Below are positions 9,311 through 63,324 of a DNA stretch of 64,000 nucleotides, one piece after another. The notes beneath the pieces were generated by a model. That model was not told the origin of the DNA and made no database searches. It saw only the letters and a program-made list of their open reading frames with translations. Origin of the DNA: an uncultured Candidatus Saccharibacteria bacterium (GTDB lineage: Bacteria > Patescibacteriota > Minisyncoccia > Phycocordibacterales > UBA918); NCBI GenBank assembly GCA_964611205.1, contig CAZSZB010000001.1, positions 123,144 to 187,143 of the forward strand, written 5' to 3'. Made by a program: the position numbers and the translations under genes. The stretch's first letter is position 1, and every line of letters starts with the position of its first letter.

Positions 9311-10264
9311 ATGCTTATGTCAACAACAATTCAAAAAACTATTACTTTCGTACTTGGTTTGAGTTTGGTGCTAACTCTAGCTACTACTTTAGTGCCAAAA
9401 GCAGAAGCGAGTACGGTCTATTATCCTAATAGAGGCTCTGAGTCTGTAGAACAGATGATTGCGCGTCTATACCAACTGATAGCTCAGTTACAACAGCTAC
9501 AAGCCCAGCAAAATTATAACTACGGATATACTTACGGAAATATGTACGGACAAGTACATGGAGTAAGTTATTATCCTTCTTATGGTGTAAATGTAGAAAC
9601 TTTACTAGTTTCTAATACTGACAGAAACTCCACTACACTAAATGGACGAGTGAGTTTAACTGGTTCAGATTATGCTTATGTTTGGTTCGAGTACGGTATA
9701 GATGGAGATTTTGATTATCAAACTGAGAAAATACGGATAAATAATAATTACACAAATAATTTTAGTGTCAGACTTTATAACTTGCGAGATAATAAGCAGT
9801 ATAGTTTCCGGGCTGTAGTCGAAGATAAAAATGGCCGTCGAAGTTACGGAGAGCGTCGTTATTTCCAGTTAGATAATTATAGTGGTTCTTCATATCGTGA
9901 TGAAGAGCCAACCGTAAATACCAACAGAGCTGATGAAATATCACGAAATAGTGCTAGATTACGAGGCGATGTAGATATGAATGATTTCGACAAAGGACAG
10001 GTTTTCTTTGTCTATGGTGAAAGTAGAAATCAAGTAATAAATGTTGAAGATGAAAATAGTTATTACGACATAAATGAGAATAGGAGAGACTTAAAGAAAG
10101 TTTTGGTAGATAGGGGACTTAACGGTTTTAGAAGCTATTGGTACCGAGTTGGTAATTTGTACGATAACACAAATTATTATTTCCGACTTTGTGTTGGATA
10201 TGATAATGACCGCAGAAACGAAACACTCGAATGTGGTGATGTCAGACAGTTTAGAACCAATTAA
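9311..10264 (+). CDS. Secreted protein with two tandem ~95-aa beta-sandwich (FN3/PKD-like) repeats
   Basis: Signal peptide MLMSTTIQKTITFVLGLSLVLTLATTLVPKAEAS. Two internal repeats share the pattern TLNGRV...YVWFEYG...YSFRAVV...YGERRYF. The sequence is rich in Tyr, Asn and Arg. Confidence 0.7.
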   Translation: MLMSTTIQKTITFVLGLSLVLTLATTLVPKAEASTVYYPNRGSESVEQMIARLYQLIAQLQQLQAQQNYNYGYTYGNMYGQVHGVSYYPSYGVNVETLLVSNTDRNSTTLNGRVSLTGSDYAYVWFEYGIDGDFDYQTEKIRINNNYTNNFSVRLYNLRDNKQYSFRAVVEDKNGRRSYGERRYFQLDNYSGSSYRDEEPTVNTNRADEISRNSARLRGDVDMNDFDKGQVFFVYGESRNQVINVEDENSYYDINENRRDLKKVLVDRGLNGFRSYWYRVGNLYDNTNYYFRLCVGYDNDRRNETLECGDVRQFRTN

Positions 10265-16616: not shown

Positions 16617-16704
16617 CCGAGTTCTTTATATTATAACAATTAAGCGGAGGTCTTTTTAGGTGTGTCCACAAAATTTAGAATGTTATACTGGTGTCTCGAG
16701 TTAT

Positions 16705-18399
16705 ATGACACAAGAAAGAGCATTAGAAATATTAAAGACTGGCGGTAATGTTTTCCTGACCGGTGAGCCGGGAGCTGGAAAGACATTTGTTATCAACCAG
16801 TATATAAATTGGCTTGAAGCAGCTGGGGTTAAGGTAGCCGTGACTGCTTCTACCGGTATAGCGGCTACTCATATCGGTGGTATGACCATCCATTCCTGGA
16901 GTGGCATTGGTATTCGTGACGGTCTTTCGCCGTATGATTTAGATATGATTTCTAGTAATGAAAAGACTTCTAAACGAATAAAAAAGACACAGGTTTTGAT
17001 AATAGATGAAATTTCTATGCTTGACGGTGCAGTTTTGGAAATGGTTGACCAAGTGTGTCGAGTAATTCTTGGTAAGCCCGAACCATTTGGTGGCCTACAG
17101 GTTATTTTTGTTGGTGATTTTTTTCAGTTGCCGCCGATTACAAAAAGAGGTGATGTAATGCGCTATGCTTTCGAAAGTCGAACTTGGGAAATGACGAGAC
17201 CGCTTGTTTGCTATATTACTGATCAGTATAGACAAGAGGATGAGTTATTTTTGTCGCTACTAAAATCAATTCGCAGTGGTGAAATTGAAGAAGAACACTT
17301 TACGCTATTGTCTGAACAAACAGAGATGGGGTACAGCGATATTGAACCGACTAGACTTTATACCCATAATGCCGATGTTGACGCTGTAAATTTGACTAAG
17401 TTAAAAGAATTAAAAACTCCGGTTAGAAAGTTTTCTATGAAAGGTCAAGGAAATAAACAACTACAACAAAGTCTCTCTAAGAACTGCTTATCACCAGAGT
17501 TATTAGAGCTAAAGGAGGAGGCAATGGTGATGTGCACCAAAAATAATTTTGAGGCTGGTTATGTTAACGGTACGTTGGCTAGAGTAATCGGTTTTGATAT
17601 TGATGGTATGCCGATTATAAAAACTGCCGCCGGTAAGGAAATTACTATAAAGACTACCACCTGGGAAGTGCGGGAGGATAATAAAGTGTTGGCTGCGGTG
17701 GAACAGGTACCGCTGCGTTTAGCTTGGGCAATTACCATTCATAAAAGTCAGGGTATGAGTTTGGATGCTGCAGAAATAGATTTATCCAAGGCCTTTGTTT
17801 ATGGACAGGGTTATGTAGCCCTTTCTCGGGTGCGAACCTTACAGGGTCTAAAAATGTTGGGTATGAGCCCAAATGCACTGCAAGTTGATCCTAAAGTAAT
17901 CACTAATGATCAACGCTTCCGACAAGAAAGTGAAATGGCTGACGAGGCTTTTTCTGAGATGGAAGAAGTGGAAGTTGAAAAAATGCACCAGCAATTTATT
18001 TCTGCTTGTGGAGGAAAATGGCCATCAGCAGATGATTTAAAAAGGATTGAGGAAGCTGTTTTTGATGGAATAAAGAAAGAGAGTACTTATGAGATTACAA
18101 AGAATTTATTGTTAGAAGGAAAAACAGTTTCAGCCATTGCTAAAGAAAGAAAGATAGGAGAATCAACTATTTGGAACCATATTGAAAAATTAGTCGAAGA
18201 CAAAGCTATTACAGCGTCCGATCTACAGTCTTTGCTTGAAGATAAGGATTATAAGAAAGCAGCACAGGAACTCCATATAGCTATCGAAGAATGTGGAATA
18301 GATAAATTAAAACCCATCTACGAATTTTGTGATGAAAAATATGATTATGATTTGGTTAGGCTGGCCCGTATTGAATATAGTTTGAAACAAGCTCAGTGA
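16705..18399 (+). CDS. Pif1/RecD-family ATP-dependent DNA helicase with a C-terminal HTH domain
   Basis: Walker A GEPGAGKT, motif Ia ATSTGIAATHIGG and motif V TIHKSQG are present. The ATG at 16705 is preferred because an extended -10 (TGTTATACT) sits at 16681-16689, inside the track's longer ORF. Confidence 0.85.
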   Translation: MTQERALEILKTGGNVFLTGEPGAGKTFVINQYINWLEAAGVKVAVTASTGIAATHIGGMTIHSWSGIGIRDGLSPYDLDMISSNEKTSKRIKKTQVLIIDEISMLDGAVLEMVDQVCRVILGKPEPFGGLQVIFVGDFFQLPPITKRGDVMRYAFESRTWEMTRPLVCYITDQYRQEDELFLSLLKSIRSGEIEEEHFTLLSEQTEMGYSDIEPTRLYTHNADVDAVNLTKLKELKTPVRKFSMKGQGNKQLQQSLSKNCLSPELLELKEEAMVMCTKNNFEAGYVNGTLARVIGFDIDGMPIIKTAAGKEITIKTTTWEVREDNKVLAAVEQVPLRLAWAITIHKSQGMSLDAAEIDLSKAFVYGQGYVALSRVRTLQGLKMLGMSPNALQVDPKVITNDQRFRQESEMADEAFSEMEEVEVEKMHQQFISACGGKWPSADDLKRIEEAVFDGIKKESTYEITKNLLLEGKTVSAIAKERKIGESTIWNHIEKLVEDKAITASDLQSLLEDKDYKKAAQELHIAIEECGIDKLKPIYEFCDEKYDYDLVRLARIEYSLKQAQ

Positions 18400-18860: not shown

Positions 18861-20093
18861 ATGAAAAATTACCTAACTACCTGGATGGCCTTTATTTTTC
18901 TCTTTTTGGCTGCTTTTTTACCGGTTGGCAATATTTATGTGGTGGCTGAAGGTTCAACCGAAGTGCCTATAGTTTATGTCTTTGGACGTGACGATTGTAA
19001 ATTTTGTCTAGCTGAAAAAGATTTTTTAGAAGCAAATAATGCAGATTGGGTTTATTTAAATGTGACAGACGATGATAATGCCAAGGTTTTATTCAATCAA
19101 ATAACAAAAAAGCATGATATTTCGAAAGTCACCCCCGTAACAGTTGTTGGTAGCGCTGTTCTGCAGGGCTACAATAGTGACGATACTACAGGTGAACAAA
19201 TATTAAGGTTAATTGAGAAGGAAAGGGGAACACTTTTTCTTACTATTGAGGAGCATATTGCCGACGCTCCGGCTGTCGATGTGATGTTGGGCAGTGGTTG
19301 TGATGAAGATGGAATTGAGTGTGCTGATGGGGCAGGCTCTTACGTTTTCGATTTGCCTATATTAGGTCTGACTGATTTGAAGAGCTTTTCTCTTTTTACC
19401 TTATCGGTGGTATTGGGCACAATCGACGGTTTTAATCCGTGCGCGATGTGGGTGTTGATCACTTTTCTAGTCCTTCTCTCACAAGCCGGTAGTAAAAGGA
19501 AGATGATTATGTTGGCTGGTATTTTCATAATGGCTGAGGCTATTATGTATAACTTAATCTTAAATGTCTGGTATAAGACTTGGGACTTTGTAGCTTTAGA
19601 TCAAATCGTTACGCCGTTGGTGGGGCTGTTGTCACTAGGAGGAGGAGCTTTCTTTGTTTATCGTTGGTATAAGAATCGTGACGTGGCTTTAGTCTGTGAT
19701 ATTTCGAATGTTAGCTCTCAAACTAAAACTATTGCTAAGTTCCAAAAAATAGTTTCCGAGCCGATTACAATAGCCACCTTGGCAGCTATATTGATTATTG
19801 CGTTTTCTGTTAATATTATTGAATTTGCTTGCTCAATAGGTATTCCGCAAGCCTACACAAAAATCTTAGACCTCAATCTACTGACCTTTATTGAGCGACA
19901 GTTTTATATTTTAGTTTATACAGTCGGTTATATGCTGGATGATTTCTTAGTCTTCGGTCTTGCTATTTGGGGTTATGACAAACTTGAATCCCATGGTCAT
20001 AAGTATTCTCAGTTGTCTCTTATAATCGGCGGCGTGCTGATGGTGTTGCTCGGTGCTCTTCTGGTCTTTAAGCCAGAATTATTAGTTCTCTAG
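18861..20093 (+). CDS. ccdA: Fusion of an N-terminal thioredoxin/glutaredoxin-like domain (CKFC) with a C-terminal CcdA/DsbD-type thiol-disulfide transmembrane domain
   Basis: A signal/TM is followed by a DDCKFCLAEKDFLE redox motif. GFNPCAMW begins the multi-TM CcdA-like core. Confidence 0.7.
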   Translation: MKNYLTTWMAFIFLFLAAFLPVGNIYVVAEGSTEVPIVYVFGRDDCKFCLAEKDFLEANNADWVYLNVTDDDNAKVLFNQITKKHDISKVTPVTVVGSAVLQGYNSDDTTGEQILRLIEKERGTLFLTIEEHIADAPAVDVMLGSGCDEDGIECADGAGSYVFDLPILGLTDLKSFSLFTLSVVLGTIDGFNPCAMWVLITFLVLLSQAGSKRKMIMLAGIFIMAEAIMYNLILNVWYKTWDFVALDQIVTPLVGLLSLGGGAFFVYRWYKNRDVALVCDISNVSSQTKTIAKFQKIVSEPITIATLAAILIIAFSVNIIEFACSIGIPQAYTKILDLNLLTFIERQFYILVYTVGYMLDDFLVFGLAIWGYDKLESHGHKYSQLSLIIGGVLMVLLGALLVFKPELLVL

Positions 20094-38767: not shown

Positions 38768-39703
38768 ATGTCTGATTATCTAAAACAACTTCAAACTTTT
38801 GATATAAACTCTTTGCCCGACTTAGATGAGGTTGTTTTAGGTGCTTTAGATTTATTTAGTAGTATCAATGTACCGCAAATAAATTTTCAACATTGGCAAA
38901 AGTCTTTAGTTCTAGGAAGTGTAAATGCTTATCAAGCAGCTCGAATTATTTTCAGTAATAAGCCAGCTTATTTTGGTAATGAATCTAATTATCAATCACT
39001 TTTAGAACATCCAGGAAATTATAATTCCGTGGTTATTTTAAGCGCTTCTGGGGGTAAACACGCAGTTGAGATGTCAGAATTAGCTCAGAAAAGTAATCTG
39101 GATACTTATTTGATAACTAGTAAACAGGATTCTTTAGCTGGAGAATATATACCTTTAGAAAAACAAATTATTTTTCCGACTAATCGAGAACCATACACTT
39201 ATAATGTTTCTACTTATTTGGGACCAATTTTAGCGTCTACAGGGGAGTTTCCAGCTGCACTAAAGGATTTTTTAGAGACTGATCTTAACGATAATCTAAA
39301 TGTTGATTTCAGCAATTACACAGCCTTTACTCTAATAGTCCCAGCTCGCTTTGCATATGTGGTGGCGATGTTAAGAACCAAATTTGAAGAATTATTTGGA
39401 CCAATGGTAGTGGGCAGAGTTTTTTCAGAAGAGGAAATAAAGCACGCCAAAACAGTTGTAAAATCGAAAAAAGAATTATTTATTCATCTCGGGACAAGTA
39501 AACAGGATTACGGCTACTCTGAAAATAATTTATATTTACCATTACCAGAAACAATTGAGTACGCAGGCATGATTGCCGTTGGTTATTATGTTATTGGTAA
39601 AATACAAAAAGCTTTACCAGCTTACTTCAAGGATTCAATAGTTGCTTACACTAAAGAAGTTTCAGACATTTTTAAACAAGAAATAAAACCAATCGTTGAA
39701 TAA
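38768..39703 (+). CDS. Hypothetical protein, possibly SIS-like sugar-phosphate binding
   Basis: A weak SIS-like segment (VVILSASGGKHAVEM) lies adjacent to a ROK kinase. Confidence 0.45.
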   Translation: MSDYLKQLQTFDINSLPDLDEVVLGALDLFSSINVPQINFQHWQKSLVLGSVNAYQAARIIFSNKPAYFGNESNYQSLLEHPGNYNSVVILSASGGKHAVEMSELAQKSNLDTYLITSKQDSLAGEYIPLEKQIIFPTNREPYTYNVSTYLGPILASTGEFPAALKDFLETDLNDNLNVDFSNYTAFTLIVPARFAYVVAMLRTKFEELFGPMVVGRVFSEEEIKHAKTVVKSKKELFIHLGTSKQDYGYSENNLYLPLPETIEYAGMIAVGYYVIGKIQKALPAYFKDSIVAYTKEVSDIFKQEIKPIVE

Positions 39704-42546: not shown

Positions 42547-43032
42547 ATGAAAGCTGTTTTAGGATTAAAGTCATTTTGGTTGATGAAAAGTGAACCGAGT
42601 TGTTATTCTATCGATGACCTCAAAAATGACAAAAAAGAAATGTGGGATGGGGTGCGGAATTATCAGGTACGAAATATGATGAGGGATGATATGAAAAAAG
42701 GGGATAGAGCATTCTTTTATCACTCTAACGCTGGCAACGAAACTGGTATAGTTGGAGAGATGGAAGTAGTTAGTAAAGCTTATCCAGATCCAACTCAATT
42801 CGATAAAAAGAATGAACATTTCGATCCCAAGAGTGAAAAAGATAATCCTCGCTGGTCATGTGTTGATGTTAAATTTATTAAGAAGTTTCCAGCGGTTATT
42901 AGATTGTCGGAATTAAAACTAGATCCAAAGCTGAGCGGTATGCCAGTCTTGAAAAAGGGCAACCGTTTATCAGTGATGCCGATTTCAAAAAAACATTACG
43001 AATACATAATAGAATTGTCTAAAGAAAAATAG
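42547..43032 (+). CDS. EVE (PUA-like) domain protein
   Basis: FWLMKSEP...WDGVRNYQVRN...FFYHSN is the canonical EVE signature. Confidence 0.8.
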   Translation: MKAVLGLKSFWLMKSEPSCYSIDDLKNDKKEMWDGVRNYQVRNMMRDDMKKGDRAFFYHSNAGNETGIVGEMEVVSKAYPDPTQFDKKNEHFDPKSEKDNPRWSCVDVKFIKKFPAVIRLSELKLDPKLSGMPVLKKGNRLSVMPISKKHYEYIIELSKEK

Positions 43033-44254: not shown

Positions 44255-45247
44255 TCATTCATCCGTTTTTTCTTTATTGTTACTGTCCTTACTTCCACTG
44301 TGGAATTTTTGATGAATGTCTCGTAAACGTTTGTTTGTAACGTGAGTATAGATTTGGGTAGTAGCAACGTTTTGGTGCCCTAACAGCTCTTGTACGCTAC
44401 GTAAGTCAGCTCCATGATCTAGAAGATCTGTTGCATAGGTGTGACGCAATGTGTGGGGAGTAACCTTCTTTGATAGACCAGCCATGATGGCCGAACGAGA
44501 AATCATTTTCTGAATCGAACGAGGTGTCAAACGATTATCTTCCGCGTCTCGTGATCGATAATTTATAAACAAAGGTTTATCAACATCACGACGTGATTCT
44601 AAGTATTTTCTAAGCCATTTAGCAGCTCGGGGAGAAATAAAAATAGTCCTAATGTGCTTACCTTTACCAACTATTGAAAGCTCGTAAGTTCGTTTAAGGT
44701 CTTTGTCCTTGAGCATTGTAAACTGATCGGCATCTAATGCTGTTAATTCTGAAATACGCATGCCTGAAGAGAAAAATAGTTCCATAATGGCCCGGTCACG
44801 TATCCCAGACGGTTTTTTGATGTCAGGAATTTTCAACATAGCTTCTATGTCGTGTACATCTAGAAAAGAAATCGTCTCTTCACTTTTTTGTTTAGCTAAT
44901 TTTATTTTGGAGGAGGGGAGAGACTCAATATCTCGTTCTGCTAGATAGTTTAATAAAGCTCGTAATGCTATTAGATAGTAATTTTGTGATTTTTTGGAAA
45001 GATACTCTCCGCGGGGGGTTTTGTATTTACGTGCTATAAAAAGACGATAGTCCCAAACATGTTCGGCTGTAAGTTCGTGTGGCTTTAGGTTTGGTTTCTT
45101 GATTTCATTTAACCACTTCACAAACAGATTAAGATACTGCTGATAGTTTCTTTGGGTGTTACTAGAAAGTCCCTTTTCGATTTCACAGTAATCTAGAAAA
45201 GGTAAAATGTGATCGACAATTGATTCGTTGCTTTTGCGGAGGGCCAT
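44255..45247 (-). CDS. xerC: Tyrosine site-specific recombinase (XerC/XerD-like)
   Basis: N-terminal SAM-like core-binding domain. Catalytic R...HxxR...Y motifs (HTLRHTYAT, LGHQNVATTQIYTHV) are present. Confidence 0.85.
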   Translation of the reverse strand: MALRKSNESIVDHILPFLDYCEIEKGLSSNTQRNYQQYLNLFVKWLNEIKKPNLKPHELTAEHVWDYRLFIARKYKTPRGEYLSKKSQNYYLIALRALLNYLAERDIESLPSSKIKLAKQKSEETISFLDVHDIEAMLKIPDIKKPSGIRDRAIMELFFSSGMRISELTALDADQFTMLKDKDLKRTYELSIVGKGKHIRTIFISPRAAKWLRKYLESRRDVDKPLFINYRSRDAEDNRLTPRSIQKMISRSAIMAGLSKKVTPHTLRHTYATDLLDHGADLRSVQELLGHQNVATTQIYTHVTNKRLRDIHQKFHSGSKDSNNKEKTDE

Positions 45248-45302
45248 AGTATATTGATTTTAGTGTTCTTTAATTTTAACCCATAGGAAGGGAGGGGAGT
45301 AG

Positions 45303-45506
45303 ATGTCTAAAACGACTCACAAAGGAAGATGTCCAAACAATCCGGTTGGTCTGCCAGACCCCAAGTGGTCTAAGCGGGTCATCAGCAAAGACCAGGGTCT
45401 GGACGCCCTGACGCTGCAAAACGAAGCAGACCAAGCAGGGTATGAACTGTGGCGACGGTTCATCTGGTACCTGGCAAGCATAGCTCGCGGTAGCGGCTTG
45501 CAGTGA
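45303..45506 (+). CDS. Hypothetical small protein (67 aa) in a GC-rich islet
   Basis: SD GGGAGGGGAG 4 nt before the ATG, with a hairpin terminator right after the stop. The overlapping minus-strand ORFs are rejected. Confidence 0.45.
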   Translation: MSKTTHKGRCPNNPVGLPDPKWSKRVISKDQGLDALTLQNEADQAGYELWRRFIWYLASIARGSGLQ

Positions 45507-45515
45507 GACCGTAGA

Positions 45516-45544
45516 GTAGGGGCTTTTCCAGCCCCTACTTTCAA
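45516..45544 (+). terminator. Rho-independent terminator (GTAGGGGCT-TTTCC-AGCCCCTAC + TTTC)
   Basis: 9-bp stem followed by a T-rich tract. Confidence 0.6.
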
Positions 45545-45552
45545 TAGTATAT

Positions 45553-46138
45553 AGGTTCGCACAATATATGTAAAACGAACTATCCACATAATGTTATTTA
45601 TATTTCTAACCTGGGTCAATTCCTTCATTTTCTTCATTATTATAAGTGAATCGTTCACTTATTTATAATCTATCCTTAAGCTGTCTAGATCCTAATAATC
45701 GCCATCTGTTTTTCTTGTTTTTTCCCTCGGTTATTCATTTTTACGTCCATATCTGATCTAATCATGATACCTACTATAGCCTTTAATAAAGCCCTATTTT
45801 GACGTCCAAAATTCGATTCTAAGGGCCTTCAAGTACACTAGAGGTATATTCTATCCTCTGAATTTATATTAGAGCTTGTGTTCAGCTCTTAGTTTGGTTT
45901 TTTTTTGTAATTTTAAAAATTAATTCTCAAATATTTATTTTAATTTATTTTAAATTGATTACTTAATATCAATTAAATAATTTATTAGATTTTATTTTTA
46001 TTTTTACTTAACTAGTTGTAAAAATTTATTTTTTTAAGTTTTATATTGTCTAGTATGAAAGTAAGATATCGATATTTTTGGAAATCCAATACCCTACTCC
46101 CCTATTTGCTTCTTGTTAGTCGAATATTGTGCGAACCT
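45553..46138. repeat. 15-bp inverted repeats (AGGTTCGCACAATAT / ATATTGTGCGAACCT) bounding a ~556-bp non-coding segment with extreme AT content
   Basis: I verified the exact reverse complements at 45553-45567 and 46124-46138. The interior has no ORF and includes stretches over 90% AT at 45890-46080. Confidence 0.6.
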
Positions 46139-46167
46139 TCATTACCAAAGATAATTATCACAAATAA

Positions 46168-46195
46168 TTAATCACCGCATTAATGCGGTGATTAA
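46168..46195. other. Perfect 28-bp palindrome with 11-6-11 architecture (TTAATCACCGC-ATTAAT-GCGGTGATTAA); candidate dif-like recombination site
   Basis: Its exact length and arm/spacer geometry match Xer dif sites. It lies ~0.9 kb from the only tyrosine recombinase, at a + to - strand-switch point. A terminator hairpin is the alternative explanation. Confidence 0.35.
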
Positions 46196-46273
46196 TCCAG
46201 TACAGCTCTTAATCGTGTCTTAGGTTAAAACTCTTATTCACTTATGCCTGCCCTGCCCTCCTTAAGGGTGAGT

Positions 46274-58835: not shown

Positions 58836-60491
58836 TTATTTTTTGAGGGGAAATTCCAAGCTAAAAGTTGAACCCTCACCTTCTCCAGCGGAGGCTGCAG
58901 AAATATCACCTCCCATATCGTTGGCCATTTTCTTTGCGATATACAACCCTAATCCAGTCCCGGCTGTATTAATATTGTGAGCATTGTCTGCGCGTTCAAA
59001 TTTGTTAAACATTTCCTCGATAGTTTCAGTAGACATACCTACTCCAGTATCAATAATATCTACTAAAATACGTTTAGGATGCACCTTCTCGTAAACCGTT
59101 ACTTTAATAGATCCGTGTGGAGTGTATTTAATAGCGTTGTTTATTAGATTATGGATAATCTGTCTAGTTTTCCCAATGTCAGCATTTATTATTCCTTGCG
59201 ATTTCAGGTTTGATTTAAAAGTCAGAAGAAGTCCCTGTTTGACAGCTTGTTGGCGCAGATCATCAACGATATTTTTAGTTAGTTGGCTTAAATTGACATC
59301 TGTATAATCATATTTCATATTGCCAGCTTGGATACGAGAGACATTGAGATAATCTTCCACTGATGAAGCCATATAGCTACTAGATTTTTCTATATGTTCT
59401 ACTGCCTCCTCAGCTTTTTTTGGTAACTTGCCAAAAGATCCTTCCAACAACATAGAGGCATAACCGCGGATAGATGTCAGAGGACTGCGTAGCTGGTGGG
59501 AGGCAATGGAAACAAATTCGGATTTCATCTTGTCTAATACTTTGAGCCGATCATTGGCCTTCTGTAACTTAAGTGCCAAATCTTCAATTTCCTTTCTTTG
59601 TTCAAACTCTTTGCGGACACTCTGGATAAGAAGATAGCCAGCTACAGTAGTGAAAACTAGAGTCAAGCCGGCTATTATCTTCAGTAGTTCAGACTCTACA
59701 AAAATCAAAGAACATACAAGAGCCCATAGAACTACCACTAGAACTTGCGCTCCAGCTATCTGAATTTTGAATGCTTCAAATTGGACAATACAATATGCAA
59801 TAAGGAATGCAAAAACTGGCATTCCAAATAAACCATACTGACTGATAGTCCAGTTATCAGTAAAACTACTAATAATGTTACCTGAAGTGAAAGATAGGAG
59901 AAAAGTTAGTAAACCAGTTACAAAAAGAAGTAACACCCGACGCCTGTGTTTTTCCGTAATCCGTAAAGCTTTAACTGCGGTAACGAAGATTAGTATTATA
60001 AATATTAAGTTTAAAATATAAGTATAATATTTAGCTATTGGGCCTTCGATACTTTCACAACTAGAAAGAGCTATTGATTCTAGATTGTAAGTGGTTGGTA
60101 AGAGGATAATTAATGGTAAAAGTAAAAAGGAAATAGCTAGGTTAAGTTTAAAATTAGGAATACTTTTAAAAGCAAAAATATAAAATATATAGAAAGCAAT
60201 TGCATAAGTAAGAGGCTCTATTAAAACCTGCATTGACCAAGCAAACATAACTAAAGCGGGATCATTAGTTGCCCACAATGAGACATCTAACAAAGCCCAC
60301 AAGCTGAAGAGAATTACAAAAATTAATAGAAGACGAGAGATGATGAGCTTTGGATTATTGAAAAAAATCAGCAACCCTACTGCAAGAGCTGAAAAGATAG
60401 CAATAAAATGGGAGTAATTTATCAATAAGGGTACATTTGAAGAAATGAAAACAAATGAGGCTGCTTCCCATGGGCAGTATAATAATTGCAT
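58836..60491 (-). CDS. Sensor histidine kinase with an N-terminal multi-TM (7-8 helix) sensor domain
   Basis: HisKA H-box HQLRSPLTSIRGY and HATPase N/G boxes (NAIKYT, GTGLGLYIAKK). No response regulator is adjacent in this window. Confidence 0.85.
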   Translation of the reverse strand: MQLLYCPWEAASFVFISSNVPLLINYSHFIAIFSALAVGLLIFFNNPKLIISRLLLIFVILFSLWALLDVSLWATNDPALVMFAWSMQVLIEPLTYAIAFYIFYIFAFKSIPNFKLNLAISFLLLPLIILLPTTYNLESIALSSCESIEGPIAKYYTYILNLIFIILIFVTAVKALRITEKHRRRVLLLFVTGLLTFLLSFTSGNIISSFTDNWTISQYGLFGMPVFAFLIAYCIVQFEAFKIQIAGAQVLVVVLWALVCSLIFVESELLKIIAGLTLVFTTVAGYLLIQSVRKEFEQRKEIEDLALKLQKANDRLKVLDKMKSEFVSIASHQLRSPLTSIRGYASMLLEGSFGKLPKKAEEAVEHIEKSSSYMASSVEDYLNVSRIQAGNMKYDYTDVNLSQLTKNIVDDLRQQAVKQGLLLTFKSNLKSQGIINADIGKTRQIIHNLINNAIKYTPHGSIKVTVYEKVHPKRILVDIIDTGVGMSTETIEEMFNKFERADNAHNINTAGTGLGLYIAKKMANDMGGDISAASAGEGEGSTFSLEFPLKK

Positions 60492-60495
60492 AATA

Positions 60496-60636
60496 TTATT
60501 CCGTTAGATTTTCTTCTAAATCATTAATAATCTCAAAATCCCTTTGGACAATAGTTTTGTAATAAGTAGCTGTGACAGAAATAAAAATTAATGCCAGTAT
60601 GATGTAGAGAAGAATTTTCGAAAGTTTTTCACTCAT
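60496..60636 (-). CDS. Possible 46-aa single-TM peptide immediately upstream of the histidine kinase
   Basis: MSEKLSKILLYIILALIFISVTATYY... with AAGGA 13 nt upstream. Its stop is 4 nt before the kinase start codon. It is absent from the ORF track, probably because of the length cutoff. Confidence 0.3.
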   Translation of the reverse strand: MSEKLSKILLYIILALIFISVTATYYKTIVQRDFEIINDLEENLTE

Positions 60637-60729
60637 AAAAGTTTATACGTCCTTTGTTCATGGTACATTATTAACAATTAAAGAGATTTTAATCCTGGGG
60701 ATTACCAAAGCTCTTATAAGAATAACAAT

Positions 60730-61815
60730 ATGAAAAATGATTTTGGGCCAGTATGGTCATGTAACGAATGGGATCCTCTTGAAGAAGTCATAGTTGGTTC
60801 AGTTGAGAATGCTACGGTACCTATCTGGAATCAATACTTAGCATCTACGACGCCCAAGCATGCTAAATGGTTTTTTGAACAACATGGAGGAAAACCTTTT
60901 CCTGGAGACATGATTGAAAAAGCCACGATTGAGTTGGACGGATTGGTTAAGACTCTTAAACAGCTCGATATTATAGTTCATCGTCCTGACAAGCAAGATT
61001 TTAATACCGAATACAGTTCTCCTTGGTGGAGTAGTCAAGGGCTTTATTCTGCTATGCCTCGAGATGTAATGATGATTATCGGAGATACGATAGTTGAAGC
61101 TCCTATGGCTTGGCGTTCTCGTTACTTCGAAATTTTCGCCTTCAGGAGATTGATGGAAGGATACTTTAAAGATGGTGCCAGATGGTTGGCTGCCCCTAAA
61201 CCTAGTATGGCGGAAGGTTTCTATAATCCCGAGTATGACCCAAGCCAAGCTACTAAAGATGGAGTTCGTCAGTTTGTTATAACTGAAAAAGAAATAGCAT
61301 TTGATGCAGCCGACTTCACTAGATGTGGTAAAGATATTTTTGTACAAAAAAGTAATGTCACCAATGCTATTGGAATAGAATGGGTACGCCGTCATATTGG
61401 ATCAGAATTCAATATCCACGAAGTGGAGTTTGATGATGAGAATCCTATGCATATTGATACTACTATTGTTCCCCTAGCTCCAGGTAAACTTATGATAAAT
61501 CCTTCCTGGGTAAGAAGAGAACAAATTCCTAAAATGTTTGATTCTTGGGAGATTATCGAAGCCCCGGAACCTGTTAAACCATATGATTCGGCACTTTATT
61601 TCTCAAGTGATTGGCTTACTATGAATTTTTTAAGCATCGATGAGAAACGCATTATAGTAGAAGAGAATGAAGAACCATTGATTAAGCTTTTACAAAAACA
61701 TGGTTTTGAACCCATTCCTATCCCCTTCCGTAATTTTTATCCATTCGGTGGTTCTATTCATTGTGCTACAGCTGATATTCGTAGACGAGGTGAATTAAAA
61801 TCATATTTTGACTAA
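60730..61815 (+). CDS. Amidinotransferase (L-arginine:glycine amidinotransferase GATM/StrB1 family)
   Basis: Colinear strong similarity to vertebrate GATM (recalled from memory): NEWDPLEEVIVG, GLYSAMPRD..EAPMAWRSR, FDAADF, NPMHID and the C-terminal catalytic-Cys motif GGSIHCATADIRRRG. Confidence 0.85.
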   Translation: MKNDFGPVWSCNEWDPLEEVIVGSVENATVPIWNQYLASTTPKHAKWFFEQHGGKPFPGDMIEKATIELDGLVKTLKQLDIIVHRPDKQDFNTEYSSPWWSSQGLYSAMPRDVMMIIGDTIVEAPMAWRSRYFEIFAFRRLMEGYFKDGARWLAAPKPSMAEGFYNPEYDPSQATKDGVRQFVITEKEIAFDAADFTRCGKDIFVQKSNVTNAIGIEWVRRHIGSEFNIHEVEFDDENPMHIDTTIVPLAPGKLMINPSWVRREQIPKMFDSWEIIEAPEPVKPYDSALYFSSDWLTMNFLSIDEKRIIVEENEEPLIKLLQKHGFEPIPIPFRNFYPFGGSIHCATADIRRRGELKSYFD

Positions 61816-62819
61816 TTTCCTTGTGTAACAATCAACAACGCTCCGCTTGAAATTAAAAGAACCCCAATTATTTTTAAACTTAACGGTAATCCAGAAAGCT
61901 GTCTTCTTTGTGAAGAAGAGCTTAAGCGAGCTAGAAAAAAACCAAACATTAAGGTAAAGATTGGATGAAAAGCATTAAATGAACTAACGGCCATAATAGA
62001 TGGACCTATAACGATTGCTAATTGATTTGTGATAGCTGATAAAGCGTAAAGTGATTCATTTAGGAATTGTATACCCAATACTTTGAAATCTAATTGAGAC
62101 ACAAAATCTTGAAACTGTTTTCGGTACGGAGGCCAAGTTGTCCAAATCACACTGCTTAAAAATGTCATACCTAATCCGTTCCAGAATAGAGAAGCTAAGA
62201 AGTTACCGCTTATTGTCGAATCTTTGAACAAAAAGTATCCCAAACTGATGACGGCAGAAGCGCAGAACATTAATAATAAAGTATGGGTATCTAGTTTCTT
62301 GTTTTCTGGGACAAAATTTAGAAAACCAGCTCCAAGAATGATTATTACGGTACCGAAAATATGGATAAGCGAAGGTATTTCTGCAAATAATAGGAGGCCG
62401 AATATCAAAGAAAATATAGGGATGGTTTGAAATAAAGGAGTAACGTTAACTGCTCCACCGCGCTGCAAAGAATAAAAATATGGAATCAACCACAGTACTT
62501 CCAGCATACCAGCTCCAAATGCGTTAAGAGCTGCTATCTTCGGTATGTTTAGCAAAGAAATTTGGTTTATTCCTAGCAAGAAAATAACTGTGGCAATACT
62601 TATAACTAAGCCAAAGAAACCAGAAATTAATATAAGACGACCTGGGGCATCAACATTATTTTGTCCTTTAGTTTTTTTATTTAGCTTCTTTAACAGCCAC
62701 TCGTCTACAAACCCAACCCCCACATCTGCTCCTGTAGATACGAGAGATAATATTACCCAGGGAGTCGTAATTAAAATGAAAAGACCTAATATTCCGCCAG
62801 ACAAAAAACTTAATTCCAT
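61812..62819 (-). CDS. DMT/EamA-like 10-TM transporter
   Basis: Two EamA-like 5-TM halves. The start is uncertain. Confidence 0.55.
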   Translation of the reverse strand: MELSFLSGGILGLFILITTPWVILSLVSTGADVGVGFVDEWLLKKLNKKTKGQNNVDAPGRLILISGFFGLVISIATVIFLLGINQISLLNIPKIAALNAFGAGMLEVLWLIPYFYSLQRGGAVNVTPLFQTIPIFSLIFGLLLFAEIPSLIHIFGTVIIILGAGFLNFVPENKKLDTHTLLLMFCASAVISLGYFLFKDSTISGNFLASLFWNGLGMTFLSSVIWTTWPPYRKQFQDFVSQLDFKVLGIQFLNESLYALSAITNQLAIVIGPSIMAVSSFNAFHPIFTLMFGFFLARLSSSSQRRQLSGLPLSLKIIGVLLISSGALLIVTQGN

Positions 62820-62838: not shown

Positions 62839-63324
62839 TCATAATAAAAAAAGTAAGATAAACGGTAACATCAACCACCAAAAGAAGCTTTGTTCAGAAC
62901 CGAATAGATAATTTATGGGAGAGCCAGGCGTGATTATATCGGTGACAGGAAGAACATGATAGCTGTATATCATAATAAGAACAGTTCCGGCGGTTGCTAA
63001 TAAAAACTTTTTCCAAAAGCCTTCAAATAAATTCTCGTCATATTCTCGAGGTAAGATGCGTGAAAAAAGTTTAGTCGAGAGAAAAGTGAAAGTAGCAAAA
63101 ACCAAAATCATTAATATCGCTTTCGATTTTTGACTATCAGTATTGTTAAGCAGCACTTCGTAGTAAGGAAATTCTACAGATATAAGCAAAGCAAAATATA
63201 AACCCAGAATTAAGTTAGTGATACTCTGTCTACCAAACTTCACAGCATAGAATAAAAAGCCGCTAAAAATCACTATCAAAAACAAACATTCCTTTAAAAA
63301 AGAAATAATAGTTGCTGTATCCAT
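62839..63324 (-). CDS. Hypothetical membrane protein (4-5 TM)
   Basis: Hydrophobic ORF with no recognisable family. Confidence 0.5.
   Translation of the reverse strand: MDTATIISFLKECLFLIVIFSGFLFYAVKFGRQSITNLILGLYFALLISVEFPYYEVLLNNTDSQKSKAILMILVFATFTFLSTKLFSRILPREYDENLFEGFWKKFLLATAGTVLIMIYSYHVLPVTDIITPGSPINYLFGSEQSFFWWLMLPFILLFLL

What the first reader, a model, noticed from the sequence alone, without database searches (positions are those of the whole stretch)
60730..61815. Close homologue of vertebrate L-arginine:glycine amidinotransferase (GATM) in a reduced bacterial genome
The 361-aa protein aligns colinearly with human GATM from the NEWDPLEEVIVG block through the C-terminal catalytic-cysteine motif. 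Long identical runs are present: GLYSAMPRD, EAPMAWRSR, FDAADF, NPMHID, and HC..D.RRRG...SY.D. Amidinotransferases make guanidinoacetate, homoarginine or amidinated inosamine. They are rare in bacteria and usually sit in secondary-metabolite clusters such as streptomycin, cylindrospermopsin and phaseolotoxin. Here the gene lies between an orphan 7TM-type histidine kinase and a convergent DMT/EamA exporter. Together these could form a small module that makes and exports a guanidino compound, or it could be a host-derived gene.
Basis: partly seen in the sequence, partly recalled or inferred. Interest (0 to 1): 0.65.

Follow-up and report, generated by a model that had tools for sequence, protein, structure and literature searches.

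The report
CPR amidinotransferase wired to a sensor kinase
This gene encodes a real, intact arginine-dependent amidinotransferase, but it is not a borrowed vertebrate creatine-pathway gene: it belongs to a large clade specific to tiny-genome Patescibacteria and is almost always encoded beside a membrane sensor kinase and a 46-residue membrane protein, which suggests an undescribed system for making and sensing a guanidino compound.

Summary
ORF 60730-61815 (+) encodes a 361-aa protein that is 47% identical to human AGAT/GATM (E 1e-104).

The interpretation needs revising in four ways.
- The protein is just as close to bacterial HsvA (47%) and SxtG. It sits in its own Patescibacteria clade (bootstrap 89) and has native codon usage, so it is not host-derived.
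- It is not an AGAT orthologue. The column of human Arg322 is Trp in 116 of 120 clade members, as in the spermidine-amidinating HsvA.
The small protein is adjacent in 38 of 40 assessable clade loci and the kinase in 38 of 39, through several rearrangements. EamA is adjacent in 17 of 31.
- In relatives, the same kinase pair is operonic with a PRMT-like guanidino N-methyltransferase, with or without the amidinotransferase. AdoMet decarboxylase recurs nearby.

A conserved TGKGGATT element lies upstream of the gene. My best reading is a module that makes, exports and senses a guanidino-amine. The acceptor substrate is unknown, and a polyamine is my leading guess.

The parts
60730..61815 (+). Amidinotransferase, 361 aa; catalytic C345/H241/D192; guanidino-binding D112/D243; Trp260 at the column of human Arg322; 300-flap D-E-N-P-M
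60496..60636 (-). 46-aa single-pass membrane protein (MSEKLSKILLYIILALIFISVTATYYKTIVQRDFEIINDLEENLTE): one TM helix, a conserved Y-x-[KR]..[VI]..[RK]-D-F-E-[IV]-[IV]-N motif and an acidic tail. Its stop lies 4 nt before the kinase ATG
   Evidence: adjacent in 38/40 assessable clade loci; duplicated together with the kinase in L093
58836..60491 (-). Polytopic sensor histidine kinase, 551 aa: about 8-9 TM helices in residues 1-290 with no large external domain, then HisKA (H332) and HATPase_c. The membrane domain is the best-conserved part
61812..62819 (-). DMT/EamA-family transporter, 335 aa, convergent with the amidinotransferase; the two stop codons overlap (CTAA)
   Evidence: adjacent in 17/31 clade loci, in either orientation, from at least three DMT subgroups
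60696..60703 (+). TGGGGATT: a conserved TG[GT]GGAT[TA] element 26 nt upstream of the amidinotransferase ATG, and the only match in the 64-kb window
   Evidence: on the same strand within 330 nt upstream of the gene in 27/41 clade loci, against about 1.3 expected from background density
60660..60667 (+). ATGGTACA: a conserved ATG[AG]TACA-type (-10-like) element about 28-31 nt upstream of the TGKGGATT element, inside the 93-bp divergent intergenic region 60637-60729
   Evidence: seen by eye in the anchored alignment; not tested statistically
62839..63324 (-). 161-aa four-TM protein with no family match; usually follows EamA in type-A loci. Its link to the module is weak and may be synteny only

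Best explanation
The gene encodes a catalytically competent L-arginine-dependent amidinotransferase of a Patescibacteria-specific clade. By the family's established ping-pong mechanism, arginine's amidino group is loaded onto Cys345 (with His241 and Asp192, and Asp112/Asp243 holding the guanidinium), ornithine leaves, and a primary amine takes the amidino group to give a guanidino compound. That much is shown by sequence and fold. It is not an AGAT orthologue: the Arg that (from memory) binds the substrate carboxylate in AGAT is Trp here and in 116 of 120 clade members, as in the spermidine-amidinating HsvA. I therefore infer an acceptor other than glycine bound in the AGAT way, most likely a polyamine or diamine. 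The enzyme is one arm of a conserved module whose invariant core is a 46-aa membrane protein translationally coupled to an 8-9-TM histidine kinase. In this genome the amidinotransferase is transcribed divergently from that pair behind a conserved TGKGGATT element, and it converges on a DMT/EamA transporter. In relatives the same core is operonic with the amidinotransferase plus a PRMT-like methyltransferase that has a double-E guanidinium clamp, or with that methyltransferase alone. My inference is that the module makes a guanidino-amine (amidinotransferase), N-methylates it in some lineages (methyltransferase), moves it across the membrane (EamA), and senses it within the membrane (kinase plus small protein). 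Rough confidences: enzyme class 0.95; functional linkage to the kinase pair 0.85; acceptor not AGAT-like glycine 0.6; polyamine acceptor 0.35; kinase senses the product 0.25.
For: Enzyme: E 1e-104 to AGAT, 1e-103 to HsvA, 6e-102 to SxtG; triad and binding residues essentially invariant in 120 members; fold TM 0.88-0.89 to amidinotransferases against 0.52-0.63 to DDAH/ADI. Clade: monophyletic at 89/100 bootstraps with deeper nodes unresolved; named members are Nomurabacteria, Kaiserbacteria, Paceibacterota. Trp at the Arg322 column: 116/120 members and 50/50 loci. Arg in 38 of 41 out-group loci and the commonest state among representatives (45); HsvA has Trp. HsvA amidinates spermidine (PMC6187163). 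Module: small protein adjacent in 38/40 and orthologous kinase in 38/39 distinct clade loci. It persists in type A (kinase<-small | ->AT) and in type B (small->AT->MT->kinase, 15-86-bp gaps, different flanks). The small+kinase pair is tandemly duplicated in L093. The core occurs with the methyltransferase but without the AT in L095-L097. Methyltransferase: the top ~55 PDB hits are all PRMTs; the N-terminal PRMT helix motif and E-x8-E double-E loop are invariant in six loci. Polyamine context: AdoMet decarboxylase near the module in L014/15, L031, L097 (more weakly L013, L023), and AdoMetDC + spermidine synthase beside the 55%-identical AT in L050. Transporter: EamA adjacent in 17/31 loci, in both orientations, from at least 3 subgroups, and kept in the two loci that lost the kinase. 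An out-group AT (54%) also sits next to an MFS transporter, a HisKA_7TM kinase and two response regulators. Cis element.
Against: No activity or substrate was measured. The Trp-for-Arg argument relies on my recollection of AGAT structural work, which I could not retrieve. Trp does not track polyamine neighbours cleanly, because L050's enzyme has Arg yet sits beside spermidine synthase. This window's 300-flap (D-E-N-P-M) is the most AGAT-like state in the clade. No polyamine, arginine or methyltransferase gene lies in these 64 kb. No response regulator is nearby, so how the kinase would signal is unknown. Much of the type-A adjacency could be inherited synteny, so the independent evidence comes from a few rearrangement events (types B and C, L093, EamA inversions). 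The reverse test (kinase without AT or MT) was barely possible because the kinase homology search failed. Product sensing by the kinase is pure inference.
Confidence: 0.5

Rival explanations
1. It is a true L-arginine:glycine amidinotransferase that makes guanidinoacetate (and ornithine), as in vertebrates and CyrA, possibly feeding a creatine-like product.
For: 47% identity and full colinearity with human AGAT. The window protein's 300-flap D-E-N-P-M keeps both Asn300 and Met302 of the human enzyme, unlike CyrA (F, S), AmtA (H) or HsvA (A). In type-B relatives a guanidino-type N-methyltransferase follows the gene, which superficially parallels AGAT+GAMT. JGI annotates relatives as glycine amidinotransferase.
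Against: The Arg322 column is Trp in the whole clade. Asn at the 300 position is a minority state (12/120; His in 95), so it is not under clade-wide selection. Flap swaps did not change specificity in AmtA (PMC4887976). The clade does not group with GATM. The methyltransferase is PRMT-like and not GAMT-like, and none lies in this window.
Confidence: 0.15
2. It has a housekeeping or salvage role: the reversible reaction supplies ornithine or regenerates arginine from ornithine plus an environmental guanidino donor in an auxotrophic symbiont. The kinase adjacency is then regulatory at most, or mere conserved synteny.
For: Amidinotransferase reactions are reversible (AmtA). The clade is highly conserved (146/361 columns at least 95% conserved), as expected for a core metabolic enzyme. 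The window contains only housekeeping genes and no biosynthetic cluster. Type-A flanks are broadly syntenic (ScpAB, AspRS, TrpRS ... DnaJK).
Against: Linkage to the small protein and kinase survives rearrangement into a single operon with different flanks (type B) and tandem duplication. The same kinase core pairs with a second guanidino-group enzyme where the AT is absent. Transporters from different DMT subgroups are recruited next to the gene.
Confidence: 0.15
3. Macromolecule modification: the amidinotransferase (Lys/Orn amine to guanidino) and the PRMT-like methyltransferase act on a protein or envelope amine, such as the kinase, the small membrane protein, a lipid head group or peptidoglycan, and tune signalling or surface charge.
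For: PRMT relatives are protein-arginine modifiers. All partners are membrane proteins. An LPG_synthase_C (aminoacyl-lipid type) gene flanks the out-group AT in L050.
Against: From memory, all characterised amidinotransferases act on small molecules through a narrow active-site channel, and the fold here is the same. The small protein has no invariant Lys or Arg that could be the target (R/K/H vary). From memory, small-molecule guanidino N-methyltransferases of PRMT type also exist.
Confidence: 0.1
4. The gene was acquired from a eukaryotic host (vertebrate-type GATM).
For: 47% identity to human GATM with long identical blocks.
Against: Identity is the same to bacterial HsvA, and human-HsvA identity is itself 47.4%. 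Human GATM pairs with a different representative (77% bootstrap), while the CPR clade is separate (89%). The clade spans 63-100% identity across many Patescibacteria lineages. Composition is native: GC z=-0.07, GC3 z=-0.76, codon z=-0.59.
Confidence: 0.02

Closest known systems
Human L-arginine:glycine amidinotransferase (AGAT/GATM, PDB 1JDW)
   Same: Same fold (TM 0.89), 47% identity, identical Cys-His-Asp triad, Asp pair for the guanidinium, Ser354/355, and Asn-Pro-Met-His-Ile-Asp flap segment.
   Different: Arg322 is replaced by Trp260, and there is an indel next to it. Not in the GATM clade. No mitochondrial presequence. No GAMT partner. Encoded with a sensor kinase, a small membrane protein and a DMT transporter.
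HsvA of Erwinia amylovora / Pseudomonas syringae (polyamine amidinotransferase, PDB 5WPI; phevamine pathway)
   Same: Best structural match (TM 0.89, E 2.5e-41), 47% identity. Shares Trp at the Arg322 column and the surrounding N-x-x-W-V...IP..F..WE segment. Polyamine-synthesis genes recur near the CPR module and near its closest out-group.
   Different: No HsvB/HsvC ATP-grasp partners and not in a T3SS regulon. The flap has Asn or His where HsvA has Ala. Grouping with HsvA in the tree is unsupported.
AmtA (homoarginine), CyrA/AoaA (guanidinoacetate for cylindrospermopsin), SxtG (saxitoxin), StrB1 (streptomycin)
   Same: Same family and mechanism. The clade's majority flap D-x-H-P-M resembles AmtA's D-M-H-P-M. 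SxtG E=5.7e-102, StrB1 E=1.3e-64.
   Different: Those enzymes sit in toxin or antibiotic gene clusters. Here there is no biosynthetic cluster, only membrane signalling and transport partners. Full sequences of CyrA, AmtA, SxtG and StrB1 could not be placed in my tree.
Autoinducer synthase / polytopic sensor-kinase gene pairs (e.g. Vibrio CqsA-CqsS, LuxM-LuxN) - analogy from my own knowledge
   Same: A small-molecule-forming enzyme encoded next to a histidine kinase whose only sensory part is a multi-helix membrane domain. The response regulator is encoded elsewhere.
   Different: Unrelated enzyme chemistry and an unrelated membrane domain (a distant HisKA_7TM relative at best). An extra obligatory 46-aa membrane protein. 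No evidence yet that the kinase binds the product.
Creatine pathway logic (AGAT + GAMT)
   Same: In type-B relatives an amidinotransferase is followed in the same operon by an N-methyltransferase built to hold a guanidinium group.
   Different: The methyltransferase is PRMT-like (double-E loop) and not GAMT-like, so it would be expected to methylate a terminal guanidino nitrogen. It is absent from this window.

Membership tests
Amidinotransferase family (AGAT/StrB1-type, guanidino-group-modifying enzyme superfamily) | Full-length sequence homology to biochemically characterised amidinotransferases | tested here: met
   E 1e-104 (AGAT), 1e-103 (HsvA), 6e-102 (SxtG), 1e-64 (StrB1), covering residues 6-361
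Amidinotransferase family (AGAT/StrB1-type, guanidino-group-modifying enzyme superfamily) | Cys-His-Asp catalytic triad and two Asp that bind the guanidinium | tested here: met
   C345, H241, D192, D112, D243 align to human C407, H303, D254, D170, D305; invariant in 120 relatives except D243 (119/120)
Amidinotransferase family (AGAT/StrB1-type, guanidino-group-modifying enzyme superfamily) | Fold closer to amidinotransferases than to DDAH or arginine deiminase | tested here: met
   Foldseek TM 0.82-0.89 to HsvA/AGAT/SxtG/StrB1, against 0.52-0.63 to DDAH/ADI/ArgZ
Amidinotransferase family (AGAT/StrB1-type, guanidino-group-modifying enzyme superfamily) | Match to a curated family model (Pfam / NCBIfam) | tested here: not met
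   No Pfam-A hit at E<=0.01. NCBIfam gives only a 21-bit partial DDAH hit against a 300-bit cut-off. I read this as a gap in the libraries, given the PDB matches
Amidinotransferase family (AGAT/StrB1-type, guanidino-group-modifying enzyme superfamily) | Arginine-dependent amidino transfer activity | not testable with these tools
   Needs an enzyme assay
L-arginine:glycine amidinotransferase orthologue (GATM, EC 2.1.4.1) | Groups with GATM in a phylogeny | tested here: not met
   NJ tree, 107 sequences, 100 bootstraps: CPR clade 89%, human GATM pairs with P0129 (77%), deeper nodes 1-5%
L-arginine:glycine amidinotransferase orthologue (GATM, EC 2.1.4.1) | Arg322 (substrate-binding residue in AGAT; its role is recalled from memory) | tested here: not met
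   Trp260 in the window protein; Trp in 116/120 clade members and 50/50 loci
L-arginine:glycine amidinotransferase orthologue (GATM, EC 2.1.4.1) | 300-flap D-P-N-P-M with Asn300 and Met302 (PMC4887976) | tested here: inconclusive
   The window has D-E-N-P-M (Asn and Met kept), but the clade majority is His at the Asn position (95/120)
L-arginine:glycine amidinotransferase orthologue (GATM, EC 2.1.4.1) | Glycine as the preferred acceptor | not testable with these tools
   Needs an enzyme assay
HsvA-type polyamine amidinotransferase | Trp at the AGAT-Arg322 column and HsvA-like flanking segment | tested here: met
   NPSWV...QIPKMFDSWEI in the window against NKGWV..QIPDIFKDWEI in HsvA
HsvA-type polyamine amidinotransferase | Clusters with HsvA; ATP-grasp partners HsvB/HsvC | tested here: not met
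   HsvA groups with P0167 (99%) and not with the CPR clade. No ATP-grasp genes appear in the annotated neighbourhoods
HsvA-type polyamine amidinotransferase | Polyamine-synthesis genes in the neighbourhood | tested here: inconclusive
   None in this window. AdoMetDC lies near the module in L014/15, L031, L097 (weakly L013, L023), and AdoMetDC + spermidine synthase in L050, whose enzyme however has Arg
Two-component sensor histidine kinase | H-box His plus N, G1, G2 boxes | tested here: met
   HisKA E=4e-17, HATPase_c E=6e-25. H332, NLI.N..KYT, DTGVG and TG.GL are at least 90% conserved in 31 orthologues
Two-component sensor histidine kinase | Cognate response regulator encoded nearby | tested here: not met
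   No receiver domain in the 64-kb window or within 10 kb in any clade locus
HisKA_7TM sensor domain (PF16927) | Match to the Pfam model | tested here: inconclusive
   No hit for the window kinase even at E<=1 (none at E<=0.01). 2 of 18 CPR orthologues hit at E<=1, and the out-group L054 kinase at 1e-9. My membrane-domain HMM hits L054/L065 at 3e-5 and 4e-6
DMT / EamA transporter | EamA domain, about 10 TM helices | tested here: met
   PF00892 at 41.7 bits against a 28.2-bit cut-off; only one of the usual two repeats is detected; multiple hydrophobic segments. Direction of transport is not testable here
Secondary-metabolite gene cluster (streptomycin / cylindrospermopsin / phaseolotoxin type) | Co-located PKS, NRPS or tailoring enzymes | tested here: not met
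   The window and clade neighbourhoods contain only housekeeping, membrane and signalling genes
PRMT-like guanidino N-methyltransferase (partner in relatives, not in this window) | PRMT N-terminal helix motif, motif I and double-E loop (E-x8-E) | tested here: met
   All top ~55 PDB hits are PRMTs (E 1e-13 to 1e-9). VVIMEMLTTGMIDE[YF] is invariant in six loci. It scores 43-50 bits against the 183-bit PrmA cut-off, so it is not PrmA

The most novel reading that the evidence does not exclude
Patescibacteria carry a self-contained guanidino-amine signalling circuit. An amidinotransferase (with or without a PRMT-like N-methyltransferase) synthesises an amidinated, sometimes methylated, polyamine-like molecule. 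A DMT transporter releases it, and a dedicated membrane-embedded histidine kinase with its 46-aa partner detects it. This would be a new chemical class of bacterial signal, used for cell-cell or symbiont-host communication by organisms with almost no other regulatory capacity.
Probability: 0.15. Interest if true: 0.85.

Novelty: new variant of a known kind. Interest (0 to 1): 0.6.

Why it matters
Patescibacteria (CPR) make up a large share of bacterial diversity, live as symbionts with minimal genomes, and have very few understood regulatory or metabolic functions. This work identifies a strongly conserved enzyme (146 of 361 positions at least 95% conserved across the clade) whose chemistry is well defined: it makes a guanidino group from arginine. 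Its gene is tied to a specific sensor kinase, a tiny membrane protein, a transporter and a conserved upstream DNA element. That gives a concrete, testable entry point into how these organisms sense or talk to their surroundings. It also flags a widespread PRMT-like methyltransferase that databases mislabel as the L11 methyltransferase. If the product is an amidinated polyamine, chemistry so far known from a plant-pathogen virulence factor (phevamine) would extend to a major uncultured lineage. For annotation, the result warns against calling these genes 'glycine amidinotransferase'.

Tried and rejected
- **Host-derived gene:** rejected by equidistance, the tree and native composition.
- **Arginine deiminase or DDAH instead of amidinotransferase:** rejected by sequence and fold.
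- **GAMT-like partner (creatine pathway):** the type-B methyltransferase is PRMT-like and not GAMT-like, and it is absent from this window.
- **'L11 methyltransferase' label for that enzyme:** rejected; it scores 43-50 bits against a 183-bit cut-off.
- **Riboswitch or known RNA upstream of the gene:** Rfam found only a tRNA in the window.
- **Sigma-70 promoter and terminator scan of 58.7-63.4 kb:** counts at background and nothing in the divergent intergenic region.
- **TGKGGATT as a Shine-Dalgarno sequence:** rejected because its distance to the ATG varies from roughly 10 to 130 nt while its distance to the upstream element is fixed. The type-B matches are W-G-F codons inside the gene.
- **Trp at the Arg322 column as a simple marker of polyamine context:** not clean, because L050 has Arg next to spermidine synthase.
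- **The small protein as a substrate for modification:** it has no invariant Lys or Arg.
- **Reverse test of the kinase family by homology search:** failed. Hydrophobic words swamped the candidate list, giving 13 hits without the query itself. Only L093 was informative, and L094 was cut at a contig end.
- **Retrieving the HsvA, SxtG and AGAT structure papers to verify specificity residues:** not held.
- **The 'Bacillota' label on one relative (L010):** probably a binning error, since its enzyme is 77% identical to a Patescibacteria one and has the same operon.
Full report
**1. The observation**

Against all PDB sequences, the best matches are human L-arginine:glycine amidinotransferase (1jdw, E=1.6e-104, query 7-361 aligned to human 65-423), HsvA from Erwinia amylovora (5wpi, 1.2e-103), SxtG (6u1r, 5.7e-102) and StrB1 (1bwd, 1.3e-64). 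Counting the printed alignment gives 166 identities in 353 columns (47.0%).

Human D254/H303/C407 correspond to D192/H241/C345. D170/D305 correspond to D112/D243, and S354/S355 to S292/S293. An AlphaFold model built from a 16-sequence clade alignment (pLDDT 73, pTM 0.78) superposes on HsvA, AGAT and SxtG at TM 0.88-0.89 and on StrB1 at 0.82. DDAH, arginine deiminase and ArgZ reach only 0.52-0.63.

Pfam-A returns nothing for this protein, and NCBIfam gives only a 21-bit partial DDAH match. Given the PDB results, I read this as a gap in those libraries.

**2. It is not specially vertebrate-like**

The protein database holds 3254 relatives at E<=1e-20. The top 120 are 65-100% identical, and those with names come from Candidatus Nomurabacteria, Kaiserbacteria, Paceibacterota and 'Patescibacteria group'. 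In a library clustered at 50% identity, the best hit outside the query's own cluster is only 49% identical. The nearest such relatives belong to NC10, a cyanobacterium, Magnetococcales and Myxococcota.

All 120 clade members are 44-50% identical to human GATM (mean 46.8%) and 43-50% identical to HsvA (mean 46.7%). I built a neighbour-joining tree of 107 full-length sequences with 100 bootstraps.
- The Patescibacteria sequences are monophyletic (89%).
- Human GATM pairs with a different representative (77%), and HsvA with another (99%).
- All deeper nodes are unresolved (1-5%).
- Window-human identity is 46.6%, window-HsvA 47.0% and human-HsvA 47.4%.

The gene's GC (38.9%, z=-0.07), GC3 (z=-0.76) and codon usage (z=-0.59) are typical of the 58 genes in the window. 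A host-derived origin is not supported. The long identical blocks reflect how conserved this enzyme family is everywhere.

**3. Specificity residues**

Across the 120 clade members the catalytic and guanidinium-binding residues are essentially invariant (D243 is D in 119 of 120), and 146 of 361 columns are at least 95% conserved. Two positions matter for specificity.

The column of human Arg322 is Trp260 here and Trp in 116 of 120 members. It is also Trp in all 50 clade loci recovered from metagenomes. In contrast, 38 of the 41 out-group loci (49-55% identity) have Arg, and Arg is the commonest state among family representatives (45 Arg, 6 Trp). HsvA also has Trp there, within a similar local sequence. 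HsvA uses arginine to amidinate spermidine (PMC6187163). That Arg322 contacts the substrate carboxylate in AGAT is my recollection of the 1997 structural work and of database annotation. I could not retrieve those papers.

In the '300-flap', human AGAT has D-P-N-P-M, AmtA D-M-H-P-M and CyrA D-I-F-P-S (PMC4887976, PMC3684758). The window protein has D-E-N-P-M, the most human-like state, but 95 of 120 clade members have His at the Asn position. Flap swaps in AmtA did not change its specificity.

I conclude that the clade is not an AGAT orthologue and that its acceptor cannot be read from sequence.

**4. The neighbourhood is the more informative part**

It has one hydrophobic helix, then Y-Y-K-T-I-V-Q-R-D-F-E-I-I-N-D and an acidic tail. 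Its stop codon is 4 nt before the kinase ATG.

The kinase (58836..60491, -) has about 8-9 predicted TM helices in its first 290 residues and no large external domain. It also has an intact H-box (H332) and N, G1 and G2 boxes. Over 31 orthologues, the membrane part carries the strongest conservation (CPWE, LWATN, SGNII.SFTD.W..SQYGLFGMP).

I collected 43 distinct clade loci and scored their flanks with HMMs built from the first examples.

| Partner | Adjacent / assessable loci |
|---|---|
| 46-aa membrane protein | 38 / 40 |
| Kinase with the orthologous membrane domain | 38 / 39 |
| EamA (within 200 bp) | 17 / 31 (13 convergent, 4 co-directional) |
| PRMT-like methyltransferase | 6 / 33 |

The two exceptions, L037 and L043, have a DUF6538 protein or a SIR2-STAND defence gene upstream, where the small ORF and kinase normally sit.

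None of the 44 out-group loci has the small protein. Two of them (L054, L065) have a kinase with a Pfam HisKA_7TM domain directly downstream of the amidinotransferase, in a row with an MFS transporter, a PaaK-like ligase, a PheRS-like protein and two response regulators.

**5. The linkage survives rearrangement**

- **Type A** (this window and most loci): kinase <- small ORF, divergent from -> amidinotransferase.
- **Type B** (L009, L010, L030, L031, L033, L034): small ORF -> amidinotransferase -> methyltransferase -> kinase on one strand, with 15-86-bp gaps and unrelated flanking genes.

The kinases of the two types are full-length orthologues at only 36% identity, so the arrangements are anciently separated. 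In L093 the small-ORF/kinase pair is tandemly duplicated next to a 70%-identical amidinotransferase.

EamA neighbours fall into at least three subgroups. The convergent group is 45-62% identical within itself, the co-directional group 61-76%, and identity between the two groups is only 24-31%. EamA is retained in the two loci that lost the kinase.

No receiver domain occurs in the 64-kb window or within 10 kb of the module in any clade locus.

**6. A second guanidino-group enzyme shares the same kinase**

The type-B methyltransferase is labelled 'L11 methyltransferase' in databases, but it scores 43-50 bits against the PrmA cut-off of 183. Its top ~55 PDB matches are all protein arginine N-methyltransferases (PRMT6/7/1/3/8, CARM1; E 1e-13 to 1e-9). 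The alignments include three PRMT features: the N-terminal helix motif, motif I, and a double-E loop with the correct E-x8-E spacing. The loop sequence VVIMEMLTTGMIDE[YF] is invariant in six loci.

The family has 277 detected members, and all the named ones are Patescibacteria. In a Nomurabacteria genome (L095/L096) and in L097, it sits in the order small ORF -> (membrane protein) -> methyltransferase -> kinase, with the orthologous kinase (membrane-domain E 1e-86 to 1e-94) and no amidinotransferase within 8 kb.

So the invariant core is the small protein plus the kinase. The variable partners are an enzyme that builds guanidino groups and an enzyme shaped to methylate them.

**7. Hints about the substrate**

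L097 places the methyltransferase-kinase pair beside an Orn/Arg decarboxylase, AdoMet decarboxylase and a deoxyhypusine/homospermidine-synthase-like gene. AdoMet decarboxylase also lies within a few kb of the module in L014/L015 (Pfam 1e-24), L031 (9e-60) and, more weakly, L013 and L023. In the 55%-identical out-group locus L050, the amidinotransferase is flanked by an aminotransferase, AdoMet decarboxylase, spermidine synthase and ligase-type enzymes.

This points toward polyamines, but the evidence is thin. L050's enzyme has Arg and not Trp. The present window contains no polyamine, arginine or ornithine genes at all. Its other ~55 genes are cell-wall, replication, translation and ion-transport housekeeping.

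**8. A conserved cis element**

The 93-bp divergent intergenic region (60637-60729) contains TGGGGATT at 60696-60703 (+). This is the only match to TGKGGATT in 64 kb on either strand, where 4.6 are expected. TG[GT]GGAT[TA] lies on the same strand within 330 nt upstream of the gene in 27 of 41 clade loci. The background density of 0.089 per kb per strand predicts about 1.3.

An ATG[AG]TACA-type element (window 60660-60667) precedes it by about 28-31 nt, while the distance to the start codon varies from roughly 10 to 130 nt. That geometry fits a promoter -10 region followed by an operator or 5'-leader element, and does not fit a ribosome-binding site. Its function is untested. A generic sigma-70 and terminator scan was uninformative.

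**9. How it most likely works**

- **Shown:** the enzyme class, the intact active site, clade membership, the gene linkage and the upstream motif.
- **Inferred:** the module makes a guanidino-amine from arginine, methylates it in lineages that carry the PRMT-like enzyme, moves it with the DMT transporter, and detects it through the membrane domain of the kinase assisted by the 46-aa protein.

From my own knowledge, the closest functional analogy is the autoinducer synthase / polytopic kinase gene pair of Vibrio (CqsA-CqsS). The rivals are listed separately with their evidence: a true glycine amidinotransferase, an arginine/ornithine salvage enzyme with merely syntenic neighbours, and a protein- or envelope-modifying system. 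No paper in the searchable library links an amidinotransferase to CPR bacteria or to a sensor kinase.

**10. Verdict**

The vertebrate or host angle is wrong, and 'GATM homologue' should not be read as 'glycine amidinotransferase'.

The enzyme is a new clade of a known family in a previously undescribed, strongly conserved association with a sensor kinase, a micro-protein and (in relatives) a PRMT-like methyltransferase. I rate it a new variant of a known kind, of moderate to good interest, with straightforward experiments available.

Noticed in passing
window 45290-45545 (+): A ~250-nt GC-rich island (52-55% GC in a 39% GC genome) in an ORF-free gap. It folds better than all 100 shuffles on both strands (z=-3.2 and -4.2) and ends in a terminator-like hairpin on the + strand. 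It contains ACCAGGGUCUGG...GAAGCAGACCAAGCAGGG, which from memory resembles the SRP-RNA helix-8 motif. There is no Rfam match even at E<=0.1, so it may be a divergent SRP RNA or an unknown structured RNA.
   Followed up: partly
window 44255-46270: GC skew and gene orientation both switch at about 45 kb (+ strand genes before, - strand genes after; the cumulative skew peaks there), next to a XerC-like tyrosine recombinase (44255-45247, -). This is probably the replication terminus / dif region. The same gap holds a 150-nt stretch of 8.7% GC (45900-46049) and a perfect 28-nt palindrome TTAATCACCGCATTAATGCGGTGATTAA at about 46170-46197.
   Followed up: partly
L009 8164-9006, L010 8192-9037, L095 8001-8837, L097 8001-8837 (not in the window): A Patescibacteria-wide family of ~280-aa methyltransferases, annotated as '50S ribosomal protein L11 methyltransferase', is PRMT-like (double-E loop, PRMT N-terminal motif) and scores far below the PrmA cut-off. 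It is always found immediately upstream of the orthologue of this window's kinase.
   Followed up: yes
L093 5839-9513: Tandem duplication of the small-membrane-protein + kinase pair. The first kinase copy is split into 377-aa and 159-aa ORFs (a frameshift or pseudogene).
   Followed up: partly
L054 6269-15119 and L065: An out-group amidinotransferase (53-54% identity) sits in a co-directional row: ThiF, MFS transporter, PaaK-like ligase (516 aa), amidinotransferase, HisKA_7TM histidine kinase, stand-alone PheRS-alpha-like core, and two response regulators. This may be a small regulated biosynthetic cluster.
   Followed up: partly
L050 8999-16857: An out-group amidinotransferase (55% identity, Arg at the 322 column) is flanked by an LPG_synthase_C-type gene on one side and by aminotransferase, AdoMet decarboxylase, spermidine synthase, PPDK_N/PEP-utiliser and AMP-binding genes on the other. 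This looks like a polyamine-conjugate pathway.
   Followed up: partly
L097 5764-6348; L009 6089-6721; L010 6109-6702; L011 9090-9869 and others: A ~194-aa multi-TM protein with no family match recurs just upstream of the small ORF in all type-B loci and near several type-A loci. It is absent from this window.
   Followed up: no
window 60838-61395 (-): A 185-aa antisense ORF lies entirely inside the amidinotransferase gene. It is most likely spurious.
   Followed up: no
window 16660-18399 (+) and 42547-43032 (+): A PIF1-like helicase with a C-terminal HTH_40 domain, and an EVE-domain protein, sit among otherwise standard housekeeping genes. Three ORFs of 300-410 aa (9311-10264, 18861-20093, 38768-39703) have no Pfam match.
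   Followed up: no
L010 (GCA_050260455.1): A MAG labelled 'Bacillota bacterium' carries the Patescibacteria type-B operon, with an amidinotransferase 77% identical to that of a Patescibacteria MAG. This is likely a taxonomic mis-assignment or a mis-binned contig.
   Followed up: no
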